DNA of 51,269 nucleotides from a phage. This document shows positions 1,640 to 39,273 of this stretch, piece after piece. Each line of letters begins with the position of its first letter. Within the stretch, counting starts at the first letter, position 1. The stretch lies in the sequence record PZ445518.1, one strand, 5' to 3'. The notes below the pieces were generated by a model. The model had not been told where the DNA came from and searched no databases. It saw only the letters and a list, made by a program, of their open reading frames with translations. A program made the translations under genes and the position numbers.

Positions 1640-2932
1640 ATGAGCGAAAAAACAAGGCTAGTTAAGGCCGATGGATACAACGAGATTTTCAAGGGTAGTA
1701 AGGGCAATGGGCGTGTAGAGTTGCCTTTCTTTATGCAGGGGTTCGAATACACCACGCACGATGATTTTTACATTCGTGACGGCCTAGCAAAACGAATCAT
1801 CGACGTTGTTCCAGAAGAAATGGTGACGCCTGGATTTAATATTGATGGCGTGGAAGATGAGGAAAGTTTTAGATCTTTGTGGGATGAGAAGCGACTAAAC
1901 GATAAAATCATTGATGCGCTTTGCTGGTCGCGTCTTTTTGGTGGCGCTGCAATCGTGGCAATCGTCCAGGATGGCAGGGCTTTAAAGTCACCTGTAGCGC
2001 CTGGTGCAATCCTTGAAGATGTTCGCGTTTACGATCGCTTTCAGGTTCGCGTAGAAAAGCGCGAAACTAATCCACGCAAGGTAAGATATGGTGAGCCATT
2101 AATTTACACCATTTCACCTGGTGCCGACTTGCCAGAATACCAGGTTCACTATTCGCGAGTCTGTATTATCGACGGTGAGCGGCTACCAAATCAGCGGCGT
2201 CAATCAAATGATGGGTGGGGTGAGTCGATCCTGAATAAGAGACTTGTTGAGGCTATTTGTGATTATAACTACTGCGAAAACTTAGCAACTCAATTGTTGC
2301 GACGTAAGCAACAGGCGGTATGGAAAGTTAAAGGTCTTGCTGATCTTTGTGATGATGATGATGGTGTTAGTGCCGCACGTTTGCGACTTGCTCAAGTTGA
2401 TGATGAGGGTGGCGTAGGCCGTGCGATCGGCATTGATGCGGAAGATGAGGAATATGATGTTTTAAATTCTGATATTTCTGCCGTCGATTCATTCCTGGAA
2501 AAGAAGATGGATCGCATTGTATCTCTTTCCGGCATCCATGAAATCATCCTCAAAAACAAGAACGTTGGCGGTGTTAGCGCGAGCCAAAACACGGCGCTTG
2601 AAACCTTCTGCAAGCTGATCGACCGAAAGCGAAAGGAAGAATACAAACCAATCCTTGAATTTCTGATCCCGTTCCTTATTCAAGAGGAAGAATGGAGCAT
2701 TCAGTTTGCGCCGTTAAGCGTTCCCAGCGAAAAGGACCAGGCCGAGATCTTGAACAAGAATATTGATTCTTTGAGCAAGGCTATTGACGGTCAATTCATG
2801 GATGCAGAAGAGGCGCGCGACACATTGCGAGCCATTGCGCCTAACGTTAAACTAAAAGACGGCAATGACATTAAATTACCTGAGCAAGACGTAGAGCCGG
2901 AGCCAGGAACAACAGAGGGTAGCAATCAATGA
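1640..2932 (+). CDS. portal protein
   Basis: ATG at 1640 with GGAG about 9 nt upstream (ORF-track start 1634 is TTG); ~430 aa; follows terL; stop overlaps next start (ATGA). Confidence 0.75.
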   Translation: MSEKTRLVKADGYNEIFKGSKGNGRVELPFFMQGFEYTTHDDFYIRDGLAKRIIDVVPEEMVTPGFNIDGVEDEESFRSLWDEKRLNDKIIDALCWSRLFGGAAIVAIVQDGRALKSPVAPGAILEDVRVYDRFQVRVEKRETNPRKVRYGEPLIYTISPGADLPEYQVHYSRVCIIDGERLPNQRRQSNDGWGESILNKRLVEAICDYNYCENLATQLLRRKQQAVWKVKGLADLCDDDDGVSAARLRLAQVDDEGGVGRAIGIDAEDEEYDVLNSDISAVDSFLEKKMDRIVSLSGIHEIILKNKNVGGVSASQNTALETFCKLIDRKRKEEYKPILEFLIPFLIQEEEWSIQFAPLSVPSEKDQAEILNKNIDSLSKAIDGQFMDAEEARDTLRAIAPNVKLKDGNDIKLPEQDVEPEPGTTEGSNQ

Positions 2933-3684
2933 TAGTGAAAGGCGTCGTTAAACAATGGCGCTTTCCTGAAGCAAGCGAGCGGCAATTGCGCCGCTCAATT
3001 CAGGAGGCGATAAGGGATCTTGTTGTGCTGATGCGCAGCAAAACAAAGGAAATGAAATTTGACGCGGACACCGAAGAAATCAACGCCGCAGAGGATGAGA
3101 TTAGTAGCTTCGCGTTAAAGCTAATAGCTGGCATCGCCGCATCACTTCCGGCTATCGGTTTTGCTGTTTATAAATTCAACGCGAAGCAATTTATTAACGT
3201 AGCCAAATCAACTGGAGGCAAGTCAAATTCAGCCGTTATCATCCTTATGGCTATTGGGGCCAATGCGAATGAGAGTTGGTATAGGACGCTATACGGTCAA
3301 TGGCATGACATGACGATCGCATCTCTTCAAAAGCTATTTGGAAACATCGTGTCTGACTGGTCAACCAATATTAGATTGGCAAACTTTCGCGGAATGAGAG
3401 ATAGCCAGGTTAATGAATTGGCTGGTAAGAGGTTCGCAGTGTATAGCTCTTGGGGTAAGACAAGGGCGGAAAACATCATAGGCGCTTGGAATAGTAGACT
3501 CATGCGCCAGCGTCTTTATGATTCAAAAGTAACTCATTATTTTTGGCATGGTATGCTTGATGACAGAGAGCGATTGCAGCATGTACAATGGGAAGGTAAG
3601 CGCATTGCGCTAGATTCTGAACATGATTTTCCTGGTGAGCCTTTCGGTTGTCGTTGTTGGGCCATACCAGATTGGAACAGTTAA
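2929..3684 (+). CDS. head morphogenesis / minor head protein (putative)
   Basis: 251-aa ORF translationally coupled to portal; position typical of minor head protein; no motif confirmed. Confidence 0.5.
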   Translation: MIVKGVVKQWRFPEASERQLRRSIQEAIRDLVVLMRSKTKEMKFDADTEEINAAEDEISSFALKLIAGIAASLPAIGFAVYKFNAKQFINVAKSTGGKSNSAVIILMAIGANANESWYRTLYGQWHDMTIASLQKLFGNIVSDWSTNIRLANFRGMRDSQVNELAGKRFAVYSSWGKTRAENIIGAWNSRLMRQRLYDSKVTHYFWHGMLDDRERLQHVQWEGKRIALDSEHDFPGEPFGCRCWAIPDWNS

Positions 3685-35577: not shown

Positions 35578-37154
35578 CCCAGCAGTATTGGATTGACAAA
35601 AATAACACCATTAATCACACAAACATAATTTCTTTCTTCCAGCATTGGCAGTAAGTGCCCTTCTATCCTTTTCATTACGCCAGCCTGACCAACGAAAGGT
35701 TTTACCTTTCTCGCTGATTCGTACAGGGCGCGGATATTCAGAATACCTTTATTAGCCTTGCCGTGCCTCGTGATCAATTCAATCAATTTACCCATTTCAG
35801 CATCATCACCAGCATAACCAGAAGCATTGGCGGCGCTAATGTATGTTTTGCTCAATTCCTGAAACATGATCAACGCCTCTTGCATTGTTTCCACGTCGAT
35901 CTCTTTCGACTTCTGCGGGTATCCGGCAGGATTAAACCAGTTACGGATAACATGCAGGACGGAAGCAAGCCTGATCACCTGTTTATCCATTTTACCCAGC
36001 GCACCGCGTAACATTGTATGAGAATACTTTCCTCCGTCTGCAAGATGCGGTTCCATATCCTGGCGAGCAATGTTGAGCACTCGCATAGCTGAACGGCTTA
36101 TTTTCAGCGATATATTTGATTCGCTCATGATGTTATGCACCAATTGATAATATTGGGCTTTCAATTCAGAATCCACCGCCTCATAGGTAGAATCACCATT
36201 TTCATCAATGAATGAGCGACGGCCTAAGAATGATTCCTCTCGGACCAACAAAAAACGCTCACTAACACCGATGCCTCGCGATCCAGCGTCCATGATTCCG
36301 CTTATCGTTTCATCCTGGGCTATGACGCTCATACATCCAAGCGCGCGAAAACTCATATTATTGTCAGCATTAGCACGGGCAATTGATACGTGACCATTAT
36401 CCCACGCCTTAAGCACTAACTCACTGTTAGTCTTCCTTTCGCTATTTGCATAGGTCAAGCCTAACAGACTGTTAATACTTGTTGCTTCATCAGATATTAC
36501 GGCAAAGTTACCTTGCTTGTTGTTGATTTTCGCCAAGCCTTCTGGAGTTGTATCTGAAACAGGAAAAGTTATATCACACATTTTTTCCAGCTTTTCCTCC
36601 AGATCCTCTTTTTCCTGGTATAGAGATTCCATATCAGCGCCGGATCTTTCGCTTTTCATCTCCTTTGCAAGACCTGCCAGCTTTGCCTGTATTTTCTTTC
36701 TTTCCTTGCGGCGTTGCTCGTTGATCTTCTCAACTTCCGCAATCATCGGAGCAATAGCCATGCTGTTGATCGCAGATTTACCAGTTGACGGCGGCTGGCT
36801 TGTAACGACGTAAAGCGCAGTCGGCTGATCGGTTCCGTGATAGTCAACCGTAAAGCGTCCAAGCATAGCGGCAGAAATGCAGCCGATAAAGTGCATGTAA
36901 GCCGATGATTCAGGGAATTGAACGGATCGCGCAATGCTGCGTGATAACTTGCCGACAACATCAATATCATTACCAAGAGAAATAACGGGGTAGCGATCGT
37001 GACCGCTATTCACATCCTTTACGTCGCCCCAAAAGCTGGACGACTGGCGATAGCCGTTAGCCTGAATTGATACGCGAACTGGCGAAAGGTTCTGGCTTTC
37101 AGCCATAGCGATTATTTGTTGTGGAGTTAATTTGTTCGTTTCTAATGAAAACAT
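35574..37154 (-). CDS. P-loop NTPase, DUF3987 / primase-C-terminal-like replication protein (putative)
   Basis: 526 aa; Walker A-like PPSTGKS; size and placement among replication genes. Confidence 0.5.
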   Translation of the reverse strand: MFSLETNKLTPQQIIAMAESQNLSPVRVSIQANGYRQSSSFWGDVKDVNSGHDRYPVISLGNDIDVVGKLSRSIARSVQFPESSAYMHFIGCISAAMLGRFTVDYHGTDQPTALYVVTSQPPSTGKSAINSMAIAPMIAEVEKINEQRRKERKKIQAKLAGLAKEMKSERSGADMESLYQEKEDLEEKLEKMCDITFPVSDTTPEGLAKINNKQGNFAVISDEATSINSLLGLTYANSERKTNSELVLKAWDNGHVSIARANADNNMSFRALGCMSVIAQDETISGIMDAGSRGIGVSERFLLVREESFLGRRSFIDENGDSTYEAVDSELKAQYYQLVHNIMSESNISLKISRSAMRVLNIARQDMEPHLADGGKYSHTMLRGALGKMDKQVIRLASVLHVIRNWFNPAGYPQKSKEIDVETMQEALIMFQELSKTYISAANASGYAGDDAEMGKLIELITRHGKANKGILNIRALYESARKVKPFVGQAGVMKRIEGHLLPMLEERNYVCVINGVIFVNPILLG

Positions 37155-37182
37155 TCGTTAGCTTCTCCTTTGTGGGCCGTAA

Positions 37183-37230
37183 ATTTTAACGGCCCAATAC
37201 TACCCCGTTTTGTCAAAAAGTGCTATTTGA
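37183..37230 (-). promoter_or_regulatory. conserved-element promoter cassette (-10 TAAAAT)
   Basis: Minus strand: AAATAGCACTTTTTGACAAAA, 19 nt, TAAAAT inside hairpin GGGCCGT..ACGGCCC. Confidence 0.45.
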
Positions 37231-37498
37231 TCCGCTCTATTGCAACCAGAAGTCGATCAGGCTGGCGGTCGCTGTAGCATTCTCCTGTAATCCCATCCTT
37301 AAACGTAAAGTAAAGCGCCTTATGATATGAAAAACCAATCAGCCAACCTACCGCCGTTTTTTTGATGGGCCTGACTATATCGCCAGGCTTGAAGGTTTTT
37401 GTTGCTGAATGAGTCACCTTATAGCGATATTCAGCCTTGATCATAAGGCTTCTCGCTTCCGTGGTTTTTGTGGAATCCGTACTTTTTCCAAATGGCAT
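37223..37498 (-). CDS. hypothetical protein
   Basis: Stop TAG embedded in conserved element; start uncertain (overlaps HNH gene end). Confidence 0.35.
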   Translation of the reverse strand: MPFGKSTDSTKTTEARSLMIKAEYRYKVTHSATKTFKPGDIVRPIKKTAVGWLIGFSYHKALYFTFKDGITGECYSDRQPDRLLVAIERIK

Positions 37499-37952
37499 CT
37501 CTTGATGCTACAGCGCTATCAATTGATGCATGATAACCACCAGAAATACACCTGCCATCAACAGTTACTTGTACGCACCATTTAGACACCCTCTTATTCC
37601 ACATCACGCCAGTATAACCAGATTTATTTGTCGATCTCCTTGTGTGGTTTTGTGAGTTTTGTTTTCTTGTGACAAGCCGGAGGTTTTCGATTCTATTGTC
37701 ATCTCTTATGTGATTCACGTGATCTATCTCCATTCCTTTTGGTATTGTTTTTCCATGCATCCACCAAACAATCCAATGCGCCGGATACTCTCTGCCACCA
37801 ATACCTATACGTCTATATCCGTTTTTAGTTATATAACCTGCCTCATCGCCAATTTTTGCCCGTCTTCCTGATGGGCTTTTCCATAATAGACGACCATTTT
37901 CATATATAAATAAATTTAGAAGTACTTGCCTTGAAATTCCGCTATTGCACAT
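37431..37952 (-). CDS. HNH homing endonuclease with AP2 DNA-binding domain
   Basis: HNH motif EIDHVNHIRDDNRIENL...N; AP2-like SGYTGVMWNKRVSKWCVQV...GGYHAS; start overlaps upstream gene end. Confidence 0.75.
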   Translation of the reverse strand: MCNSGISRQVLLNLFIYENGRLLWKSPSGRRAKIGDEAGYITKNGYRRIGIGGREYPAHWIVWWMHGKTIPKGMEIDHVNHIRDDNRIENLRLVTRKQNSQNHTRRSTNKSGYTGVMWNKRVSKWCVQVTVDGRCISGGYHASIDSAVASRDAIWKKYGFHKNHGSEKPYDQG

Positions 37953-38143
37953 TTAAATCCCACCTCGCATCTTTCAAGAGTCCATTGCTCACCTTGAGCA
38001 TCAACAACGTAACCAGCTACAGCGCCTAAAACCCTTCCCATAATTATCTCATAGCGTTTCCCTTCCTTAAAATGCTGACCTGGCTTTACGCTGTTCATGT
38101 GGTGGTAAACTTTTGAGCATTTTATTGTTCTCTTCTTTGCCAT
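37916..38143 (-). CDS. hypothetical protein
   Basis: 75-aa ORF with AAGGAG RBS downstream of promoter cassette. Confidence 0.45.
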   Translation of the reverse strand: MAKKRTIKCSKVYHHMNSVKPGQHFKEGKRYEIIMGRVLGAVAGYVVDAQGEQWTLERCEVGFKCAIAEFQGKYF

Positions 38144-38174
38144 CGTTTATTTCTCCTTTCGTTTCGGTGAAGTG

Positions 38175-38220
38175 ATTATGCCAGGTTTTTACACCTGGCT
38201 TTTAACAAAAAGTGCTATTT
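38175..38220 (-). promoter_or_regulatory. conserved-element promoter cassette (-10 CATAAT)
   Basis: Minus strand: AAATAGCACTTTTTGTTAAAA, 19 nt hairpin GCCAGGT..ACCTGGC, CATAAT, leader CACCGAAACGAAAGGAG. Confidence 0.55.
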
Positions 38221-38925
38221 TGAGTTTGACTCAAATACGGCGCGAGCAAATCCGCGCGGAGTGAGGGAGCGGATCATCTTTGTGCGTGATGAATTGCCGC
38301 CAGTTTTGGCCCAGCCTGGATTATCTTTGTCTTTCTCTTTCGGCAGGATTAAAGCGCGTGGAGGAATAACAAAGCCGTTGCCAGTCCAGAGGCATGTTTT
38401 CTTAAAGTAGCGATCCCGCGCCGGAATAATATCAGGGAAGTCGGGATGTTTATCATCTTCCGGCAGATAGCCAGCGTAATCGCACGGATGGAACGTATAA
38501 TCAGGCTTACGCCATAACGTTGACAACTTGCCAACCGGATTTTCGATCATGTAAGGAACACCGAAATAATCAGCTATATCAGCCGCGATTCTGCAAGTGT
38601 CGGCGGCCTCATCCTGGAACGATGGATTCTCAAGGCGTTTTTTGGCCCAATGGCGAGATCCGCTATTTGCAAGGTCGGTGCAAGGAGGGAACGCCATAAT
38701 AAAATCAGGATTGCCCCACTCATTATTGATTGCCTTAACATAAAAAGCATCATCAATCCAGACGTTAACGTATTCGATATTCTCATGCTGTATGCGCACT
38801 GACTGGTAATCACCGTGATCGCCGCCGTCAGCATTAAAGCAAATGCACTTATATCCATTATCAGCCCAATCTTTAACGGCTTTACCAGATCCATCAAATA
38901 GGGAGAATATTAAACCTTTATACAT
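38215..38925 (-). CDS. SAM-dependent DNA methyltransferase-like protein (C5-cytosine methyltransferase-type motifs)
   Basis: Ordered motifs FDGSG (motif I-like), FPPC (PC motif), IENPVG (ENV motif); only ~236 aa; stop TAG inside conserved element. Confidence 0.45.
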   Translation of the reverse strand: MYKGLIFSLFDGSGKAVKDWADNGYKCICFNADGGDHGDYQSVRIQHENIEYVNVWIDDAFYVKAINNEWGNPDFIMAFPPCTDLANSGSRHWAKKRLENPSFQDEAADTCRIAADIADYFGVPYMIENPVGKLSTLWRKPDYTFHPCDYAGYLPEDDKHPDFPDIIPARDRYFKKTCLWTGNGFVIPPRALILPKEKDKDNPGWAKTGGNSSRTKMIRSLTPRGFARAVFESNSK

Positions 38926-38935
38926 CGTCATTACC

Positions 38936-39160
38936 TCAAAACGGAAAACAGCGCGGACAACCAGGATCGAAATCGCATCCACAATCATTAACAATCATAG
39001 TGGGATCTGCAAATATTGCGCTTGATTCAAGATCCATATCCATATCACCTAAAGCCTCATCAAGACTCTTAATTTTATATGCCACTTCAAGCGCCGCCTC
39101 TTTATTTAGTCCGGCATCTTCTGCCATTTGAAGGCGCTCAAAAAATCCTTCTTGACTCAT
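38936..39160 (-). CDS. hypothetical protein (acidic, Cys-rich C-terminus)
   Basis: 74-aa ORF; C-terminal CGCDFDPGCPRC. Confidence 0.45.
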   Translation of the reverse strand: MSQEGFFERLQMAEDAGLNKEAALEVAYKIKSLDEALGDMDMDLESSAIFADPTMIVNDCGCDFDPGCPRCFPF

Positions 39161-39273
39161 CGCATAATCCCCTTAATAACAGCCAAGATAATAGCCAGGC
39201 CAGCAGCAGTAACCAAAAAGCCAACCGCGCCAATAATCGAATAAAAAAAGAAATCAATAGCCTTATCTATCAT
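39157..39273 (-). CDS. small membrane protein (38 aa)
   Basis: ATG after GAGGTGGAA; single hydrophobic helix; stop TGA overlaps next ATG; below ORF-track size cutoff. Confidence 0.3.
   Translation of the reverse strand: MIDKAIDFFFYSIIGAVGFLVTAAGLAIILAVIKGIMR

What the first reader, a model, noticed from the sequence alone, without database searches (positions are those of the whole stretch)
37431..37952. HNH-AP2 homing endonuclease wedged between early genes with overlaps at both ends
The ORF has an unambiguous HNH motif and an AP2-type DNA-binding domain. Its start overlaps the 3' end of 37916..38143 and its 3' end overlaps the 5' region of 37223..37498. This is typical of a free-standing homing endonuclease that has invaded an intergenic site, and it marks a likely hotspot of mosaicism between related phages.
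Basis: partly seen in the sequence, partly recalled or inferred. Interest (0 to 1): 0.35.

Follow-up and report, generated by a model that had tools for sequence, protein, structure and literature searches.

The report
Free-standing HNH-AP2 homing endonuclease gene
This is an ordinary, already annotated selfish nuclease gene (an HNH-AP2 homing endonuclease) in a T1-like coliphage; it is absent from most close relatives and has clearly moved between phage genera, taking short pieces of its two neighbour genes with it.

Summary
The window is Shigella phage JK16 (Drexlerviridae, Warwickvirus). ORF 37431..37952(-), 173 aa, is real and is annotated in public records as HNH/homing endonuclease ("EndY").

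- **HNH domain:** unambiguous (Pfam HNH_3 E=7e-18; I-HmuI-like).
- **AP2 domain:** misses Pfam's threshold on this sequence alone, but a family profile and a predicted fold both support it.
- **Overlaps:** 37 nt with the upstream gene. The downstream overlap is 14 nt, because that gene starts at 37444, not 37498.

Comparative data support homing:
- 51 phage records carry the empty junction, with the two neighbours abutting by a 4-nt overlap. Nine close relatives' records carry the cassette.
- The same HNH (95% aa) sits in Hanrivervirus backbones whose flanks are only 50-80% identical.
- JK16 is 100% identical to HNH-less tunzivis for 1.65 kb, then diverges abruptly at 37394.
- One phage carries a deletion remnant, and a different HNH has invaded the same junction independently.
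- dN/dS of 0.07-0.09 indicates a functional protein.

One correction: the site is not intergenic. Every HNH of this type comes with a recoded 17-residue (18-codon with stop) 3' tail of the upstream gene, and that tail holds the HNH ribosome-binding site, start codon and first 12 codons.

Known kind, low interest.

The parts
37431..37952 (-). HNH-AP2 endonuclease ORF, 173 aa (JK16 gp17, 'EndY')
   Evidence: 100% identical to NC_049814 10662..11183
37653..37787 (-). HNH_3 (His-Me finger) nuclease domain, residues 56-100; D77/H78, N86, N99
   Evidence: Pfam E=7e-18; invariant columns; I-HmuI 1u3e by profile E=6.8e-10 and by fold E=9e-4
37473..37625 (-). AP2/ERF-like DNA-binding domain, about residues 110-160
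   Evidence: profile hits to WRI1 and TEM1 AP2 domains; three strands plus helix; Foldseek AP2 matches; Pfam AP2 alone not significant
37960..37966 (-). Shine-Dalgarno GAGGTGG of the HNH gene, inside the upstream gene's coding sequence
   Evidence: sequence read; GAGG conserved in all alt-tail loci
37916..38143 (-). Upstream gene, 75-aa short allele of PHROG 2684. It matches only the C-terminal ~70 residues of the 128-aa allele in HNH-less relatives, at 50% aa identity
37916..37969 (-). Recoded 3' tail of the upstream gene (CEVGFKCAIAEFQGKYF*). In another frame it carries the HNH ribosome-binding site, ATG and first 12 codons. Found only together with this type of HNH
37223..37444 (-). Downstream gene, 73 aa (PHROG 12725); true start at 37444, overlapping the HNH stop by 14 nt
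37394..37444 (-). First 17 codons of the downstream gene. They are Hanrivervirus-type, matching the empty loci L013/L017 and the A123 and BEK7 loci except for isolated bases. The rest of the gene is 100% tunzivis-type. Read as a co-conversion tract
37394..38171 (.). JK16-specific mosaic segment relative to HNH-less Warwickvirus tunzivis (778 nt replacing 460 nt)
   Evidence: From 37393 down to 35746 there are no mismatches with tunzivis
38206..38217 (-). Copy of the repeated motif TAGCACTTTTTG upstream of the three-gene unit (probable promoter element)
37214..37225 (-). Next copy of the same motif, at the end of the downstream gene. The HNH has no copy of its own

Best explanation
This is a free-standing homing endonuclease gene of the HNH (I-HmuI-like His-Me finger) plus AP2 class.

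Expression (inferred). The gene has no copy of the phage's repeated promoter-like motif. It is probably co-transcribed with its two small neighbours and translated from a ribosome-binding site and ATG buried in the last 37 nt of the upstream gene.

Mobility (inferred from comparative patterns). In a mixed infection with a related phage that lacks the gene, the enzyme is expected to nick or cut the HNH-less allele near the junction of the PHROG-2684 and PHROG-12725 genes. The break is then repaired from the HNH-carrying genome. Repair copies in the HNH gene together with a recoded 17-residue tail of the upstream gene and a short tract of the downstream gene.

Shown here: domain composition, intact catalytic residues, purifying selection, presence/absence polymorphism at a fixed slot, sharp mosaic boundaries, transfer across genus backbones, a deletion remnant, and strict linkage of the recoded tail with the HNH.

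Inferred, not shown: cleavage itself, where the target lies (most likely in the standard tail sequence that the recoded tail replaces), and that the recoded tail makes the carrier immune.
For: Domains.

Polymorphism: the cassette is in 9 records of close relatives. The empty junction is in 51 records and in 22 of the 24 IMG/VR loci that have both neighbour genes.

Horizontal transfer: JK16 and A143 share 95% aa identity in the HNH. Nucleotide identity is 77-100% (mostly 85% or more) per 40-nt window from about 38145 to 37345. It falls to 47-80% just outside, and the helicase is 88% aa identical. A123 and A143 have HNH bodies with 0 synonymous and 2 non-synonymous differences, but carry different upstream alleles, long versus short.

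Sharp boundary: there are no mismatches with tunzivis for 1.65 kb (35746-37393), then 16 differences in the next 51 nt. JK16's first 17 downstream codons match Hanrivervirus alleles.

Selection: dN/dS = 0.07-0.09.

Decay: A134 has a 466-nt deletion between AAGCCTGG(A/C)GAT repeats that removes the HNH body.

Site specificity: the three closest database homologs whose context was looked up (78%, 77% and 51% identity) lie in the same slot with the same 37-nt overlap. An independent insertion of another HNH sits at the same junction in L027.

Recoded tail: it is present in all 13 intact HNH loci of this type plus the remnant. It is absent from every HNH-less locus that has a PHROG-2684 homolog.

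The mechanism is the established intronless-homing pathway (PMC2988022).
Against: No cleavage, nicking or target site has been demonstrated for this protein or any close relative, and none can be tested here.

HNH alleles occupying the slot differ by up to 57% in amino-acid sequence. Part of the distribution could therefore reflect long residence with losses rather than ongoing homing.

I-HmuI, the closest solved relative, is a strand-specific nickase, so a double-strand-break model is an assumption.

In JK16 the exchanged segment also includes the whole upstream gene. Ordinary homologous recombination between co-infecting phages could produce that without nuclease help.
Confidence: 0.8

Rival explanations
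1. The HNH gene is an old, vertically inherited resident of this slot in Tempevirinae. It is simply being lost repeatedly by deletion, and the mosaic pattern comes from ordinary recombination, not from nuclease-driven homing.
For: HNH alleles in the slot are deeply diverged (42-59% aa between subgroups) yet keep the same 37-nt overlap architecture. A134 shows loss by deletion.
Against: The HNH body is far better conserved than its flanks between genera. JK16 is identical to an HNH-less relative right up to a sharp boundary 37 nt beyond the HNH stop. JK16's downstream-gene 5' end comes from a different genus type. HNH-less genomes all carry the standard tail with no scar, which argues that empty is the ancestral state rather than repeated precise loss.
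Confidence: 0.1
2. The protein is a nuclease or DNA-binding protein kept because it benefits the phage, for example by degrading or excluding co-infecting competitor genomes or by regulating early genes through its AP2 domain. In this view its own mobility is incidental.
For: Strong purifying selection. Free-standing endonucleases cause marker exclusion in T-even crosses (PMC2988022). Nuclease genes mark exchange boundaries in other phages (PMC10448857).
Against: The gene is absent from most close relatives, which propagate on the same laboratory hosts, so it is dispensable. PADLOC matches only generic homing-endonuclease models. This reading overlaps with homing rather than excluding it.
Confidence: 0.08
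3. It is a packaging-associated HNH that assists the terminase, as in HK97-like phages.
For: Some homologs (50% identity) lie next to head-maturation protease genes in other phages.
Against: Here it lies between a methyltransferase and a DUF3987 helicase gene, far from packaging genes. It is missing in 51 related phage records. It carries an AP2 domain typical of homing enzymes.
Confidence: 0.02

Closest known systems
I-HmuI (Bacillus phage SPO1 intron-encoded HNH homing endonuclease, PDB 1U3E)
   Same: Best solved relative by profile (E=6.8e-10) and by fold (E=9e-4, probability 0.99). It has the same N-terminal sheet plus His-Me finger with DH...N...N catalytic residues and a similar size (174 aa).
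   Different: I-HmuI is intron-encoded and ends in a helix-turn-helix module. This protein is free-standing and ends in an AP2 domain. Sequence identity is only about 22%.
HNN/HNH-AP2 endonucleases of phages (Xanthomonas phages Xp10/OP1/Xop411; also noted in T1, Rtp, T5, RB16/RB43)
   Same: Same two-domain architecture, free-standing genes, variable presence between related phages, and degenerate copies (PMC2248197; PMC2993671 Table 5).
   Different: In the Xanthomonas phages the authors found scattered positions and no conserved flanks. Here the lineage is tied to one gene junction and to one conserved recoded flank.
T4 SegF/SegG/MobE 'intronless homing' free-standing endonucleases
   Same: A free-standing gene between conserved genes, presence/absence among relatives, and co-conversion of flanking markers producing local mosaicism (PMC2988022).
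   Different: Seg enzymes are GIY-YIG. MobE is HNH but has a different C-terminal region. For those enzymes cleavage and homing have been shown experimentally; here they have not.
Plant and apicomplexan AP2/ERF DNA-binding domains (AtERF1 1GCC, TEM1 7ET4, WRI1 7WQ5, PfAP2 3IGM)
   Same: Same three-stranded sheet packed on a helix, and profile-level sequence similarity.
   Different: Those are transcription-factor domains. Here the domain is fused to a nuclease, and this sequence alone does not reach the Pfam AP2 threshold.

Membership tests
HNH / His-Me finger endonucleases (Pfam HNH_3, PF13392) | Significant match to the family model above the curated cut-off | tested here: met
   64.4 bits against a cut-off of 24.8, E=7.2e-18, residues 56-100
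HNH / His-Me finger endonucleases (Pfam HNH_3, PF13392) | Catalytic Asp-His pair and the two downstream Asn residues are intact | tested here: met
   D77, H78, N86, N90 and N99 are invariant in 51 homologs. They align with the I-HmuI DH...N...N residues
AP2 DNA-binding domain (Pfam PF00847) | Match to the Pfam model above the gathering score | tested here: not met
   E=0.42, 11.4 bits against a cut-off of 33.3 on the isolated C-terminal region; no hit at E<=0.1 on the whole protein
AP2 DNA-binding domain (Pfam PF00847) | Homology by family profile, and the three-strand-plus-helix fold | tested here: met
   21 of the 120 listed homologs carry PF00847. The profile hits WRI1 at E=1.8e-5 and TEM1 at E=4.4e-5. 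The model has strands 116-119, 124-131, 134-141 and helix 144-158. Foldseek matches AP2 domains at probability 0.99-1.0, with 1gcc at TM 0.68
Free-standing homing endonuclease gene | Present or absent at one fixed locus among otherwise near-identical genomes | tested here: met
   9 records with the cassette against 51 with the contiguous empty junction; IMG/VR census
Free-standing homing endonuclease gene | Evidence of lateral movement: the gene is more conserved than its flanks, with sharp boundaries and co-converted flanking tracts | tested here: met
Free-standing homing endonuclease gene | Site-specific cleavage or nicking of the endonuclease-less allele | not testable with these tools
   Requires purified protein and tunzivis-type junction DNA
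Free-standing homing endonuclease gene | The carrier genome's own allele resists cleavage | not testable with these tools
   Only the correlate is seen: every carrier has a recoded upstream-gene tail in place of the standard tail
Free-standing homing endonuclease gene | Super-Mendelian inheritance in mixed infection | not testable with these tools
   Requires phage crosses

The most novel reading that the evidence does not exclude
The recoded 17-residue tail of the upstream gene (RCE.GF.CA.A.FQ.KYF*) may be a portable landing pad that belongs to the mobile element. In this reading it does three things at once. It keeps the neighbour gene intact, it supplies the endonuclease's ribosome-binding site, start codon and first 12 codons in a second reading frame, and it destroys the enzyme's own target so the carrier is immune. 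It has stayed conserved while HNH bodies as different as 42-59% aa identity were exchanged behind it. The Pocis76 HNH is closest to the independently inserted L027 HNH, yet it carries the tail-encoded N-terminus.
Probability: 0.4. Interest if true: 0.35.

Novelty: already known. Interest (0 to 1): 0.17.

Why it matters
It matters little beyond phage genomics. The gene is already annotated as an HNH or homing endonuclease in the public records of JK16, mar001J1 and BEK12A. HNH-AP2 homing endonucleases and their mosaic-generating effect in phages are also well described.

The useful outcomes are practical:
- The locus is a documented recombination boundary that should be masked in phylogenies of Tempevirinae.
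- The downstream gene start should be read as 37444.
- The strict linkage between the endonuclease and a dual-coding recoded tail of its neighbour offers a simple natural system for testing how a free-standing homing gene secures both its expression and its self-immunity.

Tried and rejected
- **Pfam AP2 on the single sequence:** not significant, so the AP2 call had to rest on a family profile and a predicted fold.
- **NCBIfam:** nothing meaningful for any of the three proteins.
- **PADLOC:** only generic homing-endonuclease models, with no link to a defence system.
- **Weak Pfam DUF620 hit on the AP2 region:** E=8e-4, below the cut-off. Treated as noise or distant AP2-like similarity.
- **Sigma-70 promoter and terminator scan of 36900-39200:** no more sites than in shuffled sequence, so no HNH-specific promoter is claimed.
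- **'Clean insertion into an intergenic site':** rejected after alignment. Empty genomes have a 4-nt gene overlap there, and JK16 differs from them by a replacement.
- **The longer ORF 37223..37498:** rejected as the downstream gene, because homologs in HNH-less phages start at the position equivalent to 37444.
- **Alt-tail pattern scans of IMG/VR and JGI metagenomes:** only four hits. The strict tail-HNH association therefore rests on about 14 distinct loci.
- **Paper searches:** no study of this particular enzyme was found.

Full report
**Identity of the window.** The 2.5 kb around the finding is 100% identical to Shigella phage JK16 (NC_049814/MK962751; Drexlerviridae, Tempevirinae, Warwickvirus). 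In that record the ORF is gp17, 'HNH endonuclease' or 'EndY'. The same gene is called 'homing endonuclease' in phage BEK12A. The feature is therefore already annotated.

**The observation.** The ORF listing gives a 173-aa ORF at 37431..37952 on the minus strand.
- It starts with ATG. A GAGGTGG Shine-Dalgarno sequence sits at 37960-37966, and there is no alternative in-frame start before residue 65 (sequence).
- Pfam HNH_3 matches residues 56-100 at E=7e-18, and PHROG 99 (HNH endonuclease) matches at E=1e-62.
- In an alignment of 51 homologs, D77, H78, N86, N90 and N99 are invariant.
- The upstream gene 37916..38143 (75 aa, PHROG 2684, function unknown) overlaps the HNH start by 37 nt.
The annotated gene is 37223..37444 (73 aa, PHROG 12725), and its homologs in HNH-less phages start at the aligned position. 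The true overlap is 14 nt.

**The AP2 claim.** Pfam AP2 does not reach significance on this sequence (E=0.42, 11.4 bits against a cut-off of 33.3). Three indirect tests support it.
- 21 of the 120 listed full-length homologs have a precomputed PF00847 hit.
- A profile of the 51-sequence alignment hits the solved AP2 domains of WRI1 (E=1.8e-5) and TEM1 (E=4.4e-5) with profile positions 90-154. It hits I-HmuI (E=6.8e-10) with positions 35-118.
- An AlphaFold model (mean pLDDT 86.4) shows strands 116-119, 124-131 and 134-141 followed by helix 144-158.
- Foldseek ranks I-HmuI first (E=9e-4). AP2 domains follow: TEM1 at probability 1.0, AtERF1 1gcc at TM 0.68 and rmsd 1.8 A, and WRI1.

**Presence and absence.** In the phage collection, 60 records match the surrounding 2.5 kb at 95% identity or more.
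- Only JK16, mar001J1 (two strains), BEK12A, BEK26 and EC167 (9 records) carry the cassette.
- A 331-nt probe spanning the junction of HNH-less phage tunzivis is contiguous in 51 records.
- Among 27 IMG/VR loci retrieved through the neighbouring helicase, 24 carry both neighbour genes. In 22 of these the two genes abut with a 4-nt overlap. Two have an HNH between them.

**Anatomy of the polymorphism.** JK16 and tunzivis are colinear and nearly identical up to 38172.
- They then differ completely through 38171..37394. From 37393 down to 35746 there is not a single mismatch.
- The differing segment is 778 nt in JK16 and 460 nt in tunzivis.
- In tunzivis it holds one 128-aa PHROG-2684 gene, whose C-terminal 70 residues are 50% identical to JK16's 75-aa protein.
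- The first 17 codons of the downstream gene differ at 16 of 51 nt between the two phages.
- Over those codons JK16 is identical to HNH-less Hanrivervirus locus L013, differs at one base from L017, and differs at one or two bases from the HNH-carrying A123 and BEK7 loci.

JK16's cassette therefore came from a Hanrivervirus-like donor, and the conversion tract ended 37 nt past the HNH stop.

**Evidence of lateral movement.**
- The JK16-type HNH is 95% identical in A143 and 91% in A123. Both have Hanrivervirus backbones, in which the helicase is 88% and the downstream protein 73-77% identical to JK16.
- Sliding-window identity between JK16 and A143 is 77-100% (mostly 85% or more) across the upstream gene, the HNH and the first 100 nt of the downstream gene. 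It is 47-80% just outside.
- A123 and A143 have HNH bodies with 0 synonymous and 2 non-synonymous differences in 156 codons. Yet they carry a long (127 aa) and a short (75 aa) upstream allele respectively.
- dN/dS between the JK16 and A143/A123 HNH genes is 0.07-0.09, so the protein is under purifying selection.
- Phage A134, otherwise like A143, has a 466-nt deletion between two AAGCCTGG(A/C)GAT repeats. It fuses HNH codons 1-32 in frame to codon 19 of the downstream gene. This is a decaying copy.
- Locus L027 has a different HNH (64% identical to the Pocis76 enzyme, 43% to JK16) at the same junction, with ATGA overlaps on both sides. This is an independent invasion.
- The three closest database homologs whose context was looked up (78%, 77% and 51% identity) all lie in the same slot with the same 37-nt overlap.
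- One metagenome (IMG 3300045988) holds both HNH-carrying and HNH-less contigs.

**The recoded tail.** The C-terminus of the upstream protein comes in two forms.
- All HNH-less loci that have a PHROG-2684 homolog, and L027, end in the standard tail: REEVGFSA(A)GG.YLFE..Y.* in most, with slightly diverged forms in L031-L036.
- Every locus with a 37-nt-overlap HNH ends in RCE[VED]GF[KE]CA[IT]A[EK]FQ[GA]KYF*. These loci are JK16, mar001J1, BEK12A, BEK7, Pocis76, SP-126, A123, A143, L038, L039, L041, L044 and L045, plus the A134 remnant.
- This holds whether the rest of the upstream gene is the 75-aa, 120-aa, 127-aa or 158-aa allele.
- In a second frame this tail encodes the HNH ribosome-binding site, ATG and first 12 residues.
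- It is conserved although the HNH bodies behind it fall into three subgroups only 42-59% identical to each other.

The mobile unit is therefore 'recoded tail plus HNH', not an ORF dropped into a spacer. No spacer exists in the empty allele.

**Mechanism.** The data fit intronless homing as established for T4 free-standing endonucleases: cleavage of the endonuclease-less allele, resection, and repair from the carrier with co-conversion of flanks (PMC2988022). Nuclease genes at exchange boundaries are a general pattern in phages (PMC10448857). HNH/HNN-AP2 genes with gain, spread and decay were described in Xanthomonas phages, and multiple HNH genes were noted for T1 and Rtp (PMC2248197).

Three steps are inference only. 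The first is that the target lies in the standard tail that the recoded tail replaces. The second is that this replacement confers self-immunity. The third is that the enzyme makes a double-strand break rather than a nick. From my own knowledge, I-HmuI is a nickase.

The gene has no copy of the phage's repeated TAGCACTTTTTG motif. Copies at 38206-38217 and 37214-37225 bracket the three-gene unit, so co-transcription with the neighbours is likely. A generic sigma-70 scan found nothing above background.

**Rivals.** Pure vertical descent with repeated loss does not explain the higher conservation of the HNH relative to its flanks, the abrupt boundary after 1.65 kb of identity, or the scar-free standard tail of empty genomes. 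A beneficial role in competition or regulation is not excluded and is compatible with homing. A packaging role is excluded by the gene's position and dispensability.

**Verdict.** This is a known kind of element and an already annotated gene, so interest is low. The only mildly new point is the obligate, dual-coding recoded tail that travels with the endonuclease.

Noticed in passing
window, 16 sites: 6197, 9951, 20729, 26682, 28244, 30733, 31804, 35052, 37214, 38206, 40123, 41428, 42769, 44563, 46013, 48648: The 12-mer TAGCACTTTTTG (at most 1 mismatch) occurs 16 times against 0.5 expected. It mostly lies just upstream of genes on the strand it is written on. It is followed by TTAAAAC, a variable and often palindromic spacer, and then (C/T)ATAAT. 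It is probably the phage's repeated promoter or regulatory element.
   Followed up: partly
L005, L009, L010 (MG065663, MG065669, MG065649) and about 17 more MG0656xx records: Records labelled 'UNVERIFIED: Campylobacter phage' have a Drexlerviridae/Tempevirinae taxonomy line. They share 88-92% nucleotide identity with this coliphage locus, so the Campylobacter host label looks doubtful.
   Followed up: no
L005 (Campylobacter phage A134), oriented 2710-2973: An 87-aa fusion ORF is made of HNH codons 1-32 joined to downstream-gene codons 19-73. It arose by a 466-nt deletion between AAGCCTGG(A/C)GAT direct repeats. This is a decaying endonuclease copy.
   Followed up: yes
L027 (IMGVR_UViG_2974570219_000001), oriented 2691-3188: A different HNH-AP2 gene (43% identical to JK16's, 64% to that of Hafnia phage Pocis76) sits at the same gene junction. 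It has the standard upstream tail and ATGA overlaps on both sides, so it is an independent invasion of the same slot.
   Followed up: partly
L003 (phage BEK12A), oriented 1574-2777; window 38215-38925 for the JK16 dcm gene: BEK12A has a second HNH gene (36% identical to the JK16 enzyme) directly upstream of its cytosine methyltransferase. That methyltransferase is a different allele, only 45% identical to JK16's. The methyltransferase gene exists in two allelic types across these phages.
   Followed up: no
window 37916-38143 versus L002 2442-2828: The PHROG-2684 gene varies from 75 aa to 177 aa among relatives (158 aa is the longest annotated allele). The 75-aa form lacks the N-terminal ~55 residues of the 128-aa form, and in this sample it is found only with the recoded tail.
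   Followed up: partly
window 37473-37664 (residues 96-169 of the HNH protein): There is a weak, sub-threshold Pfam hit to plant DUF620 (E=8e-4, 19.3 bits against a cut-off of 22.5) over the AP2-like region. It may be chance or distant AP2-like similarity.
   Followed up: no
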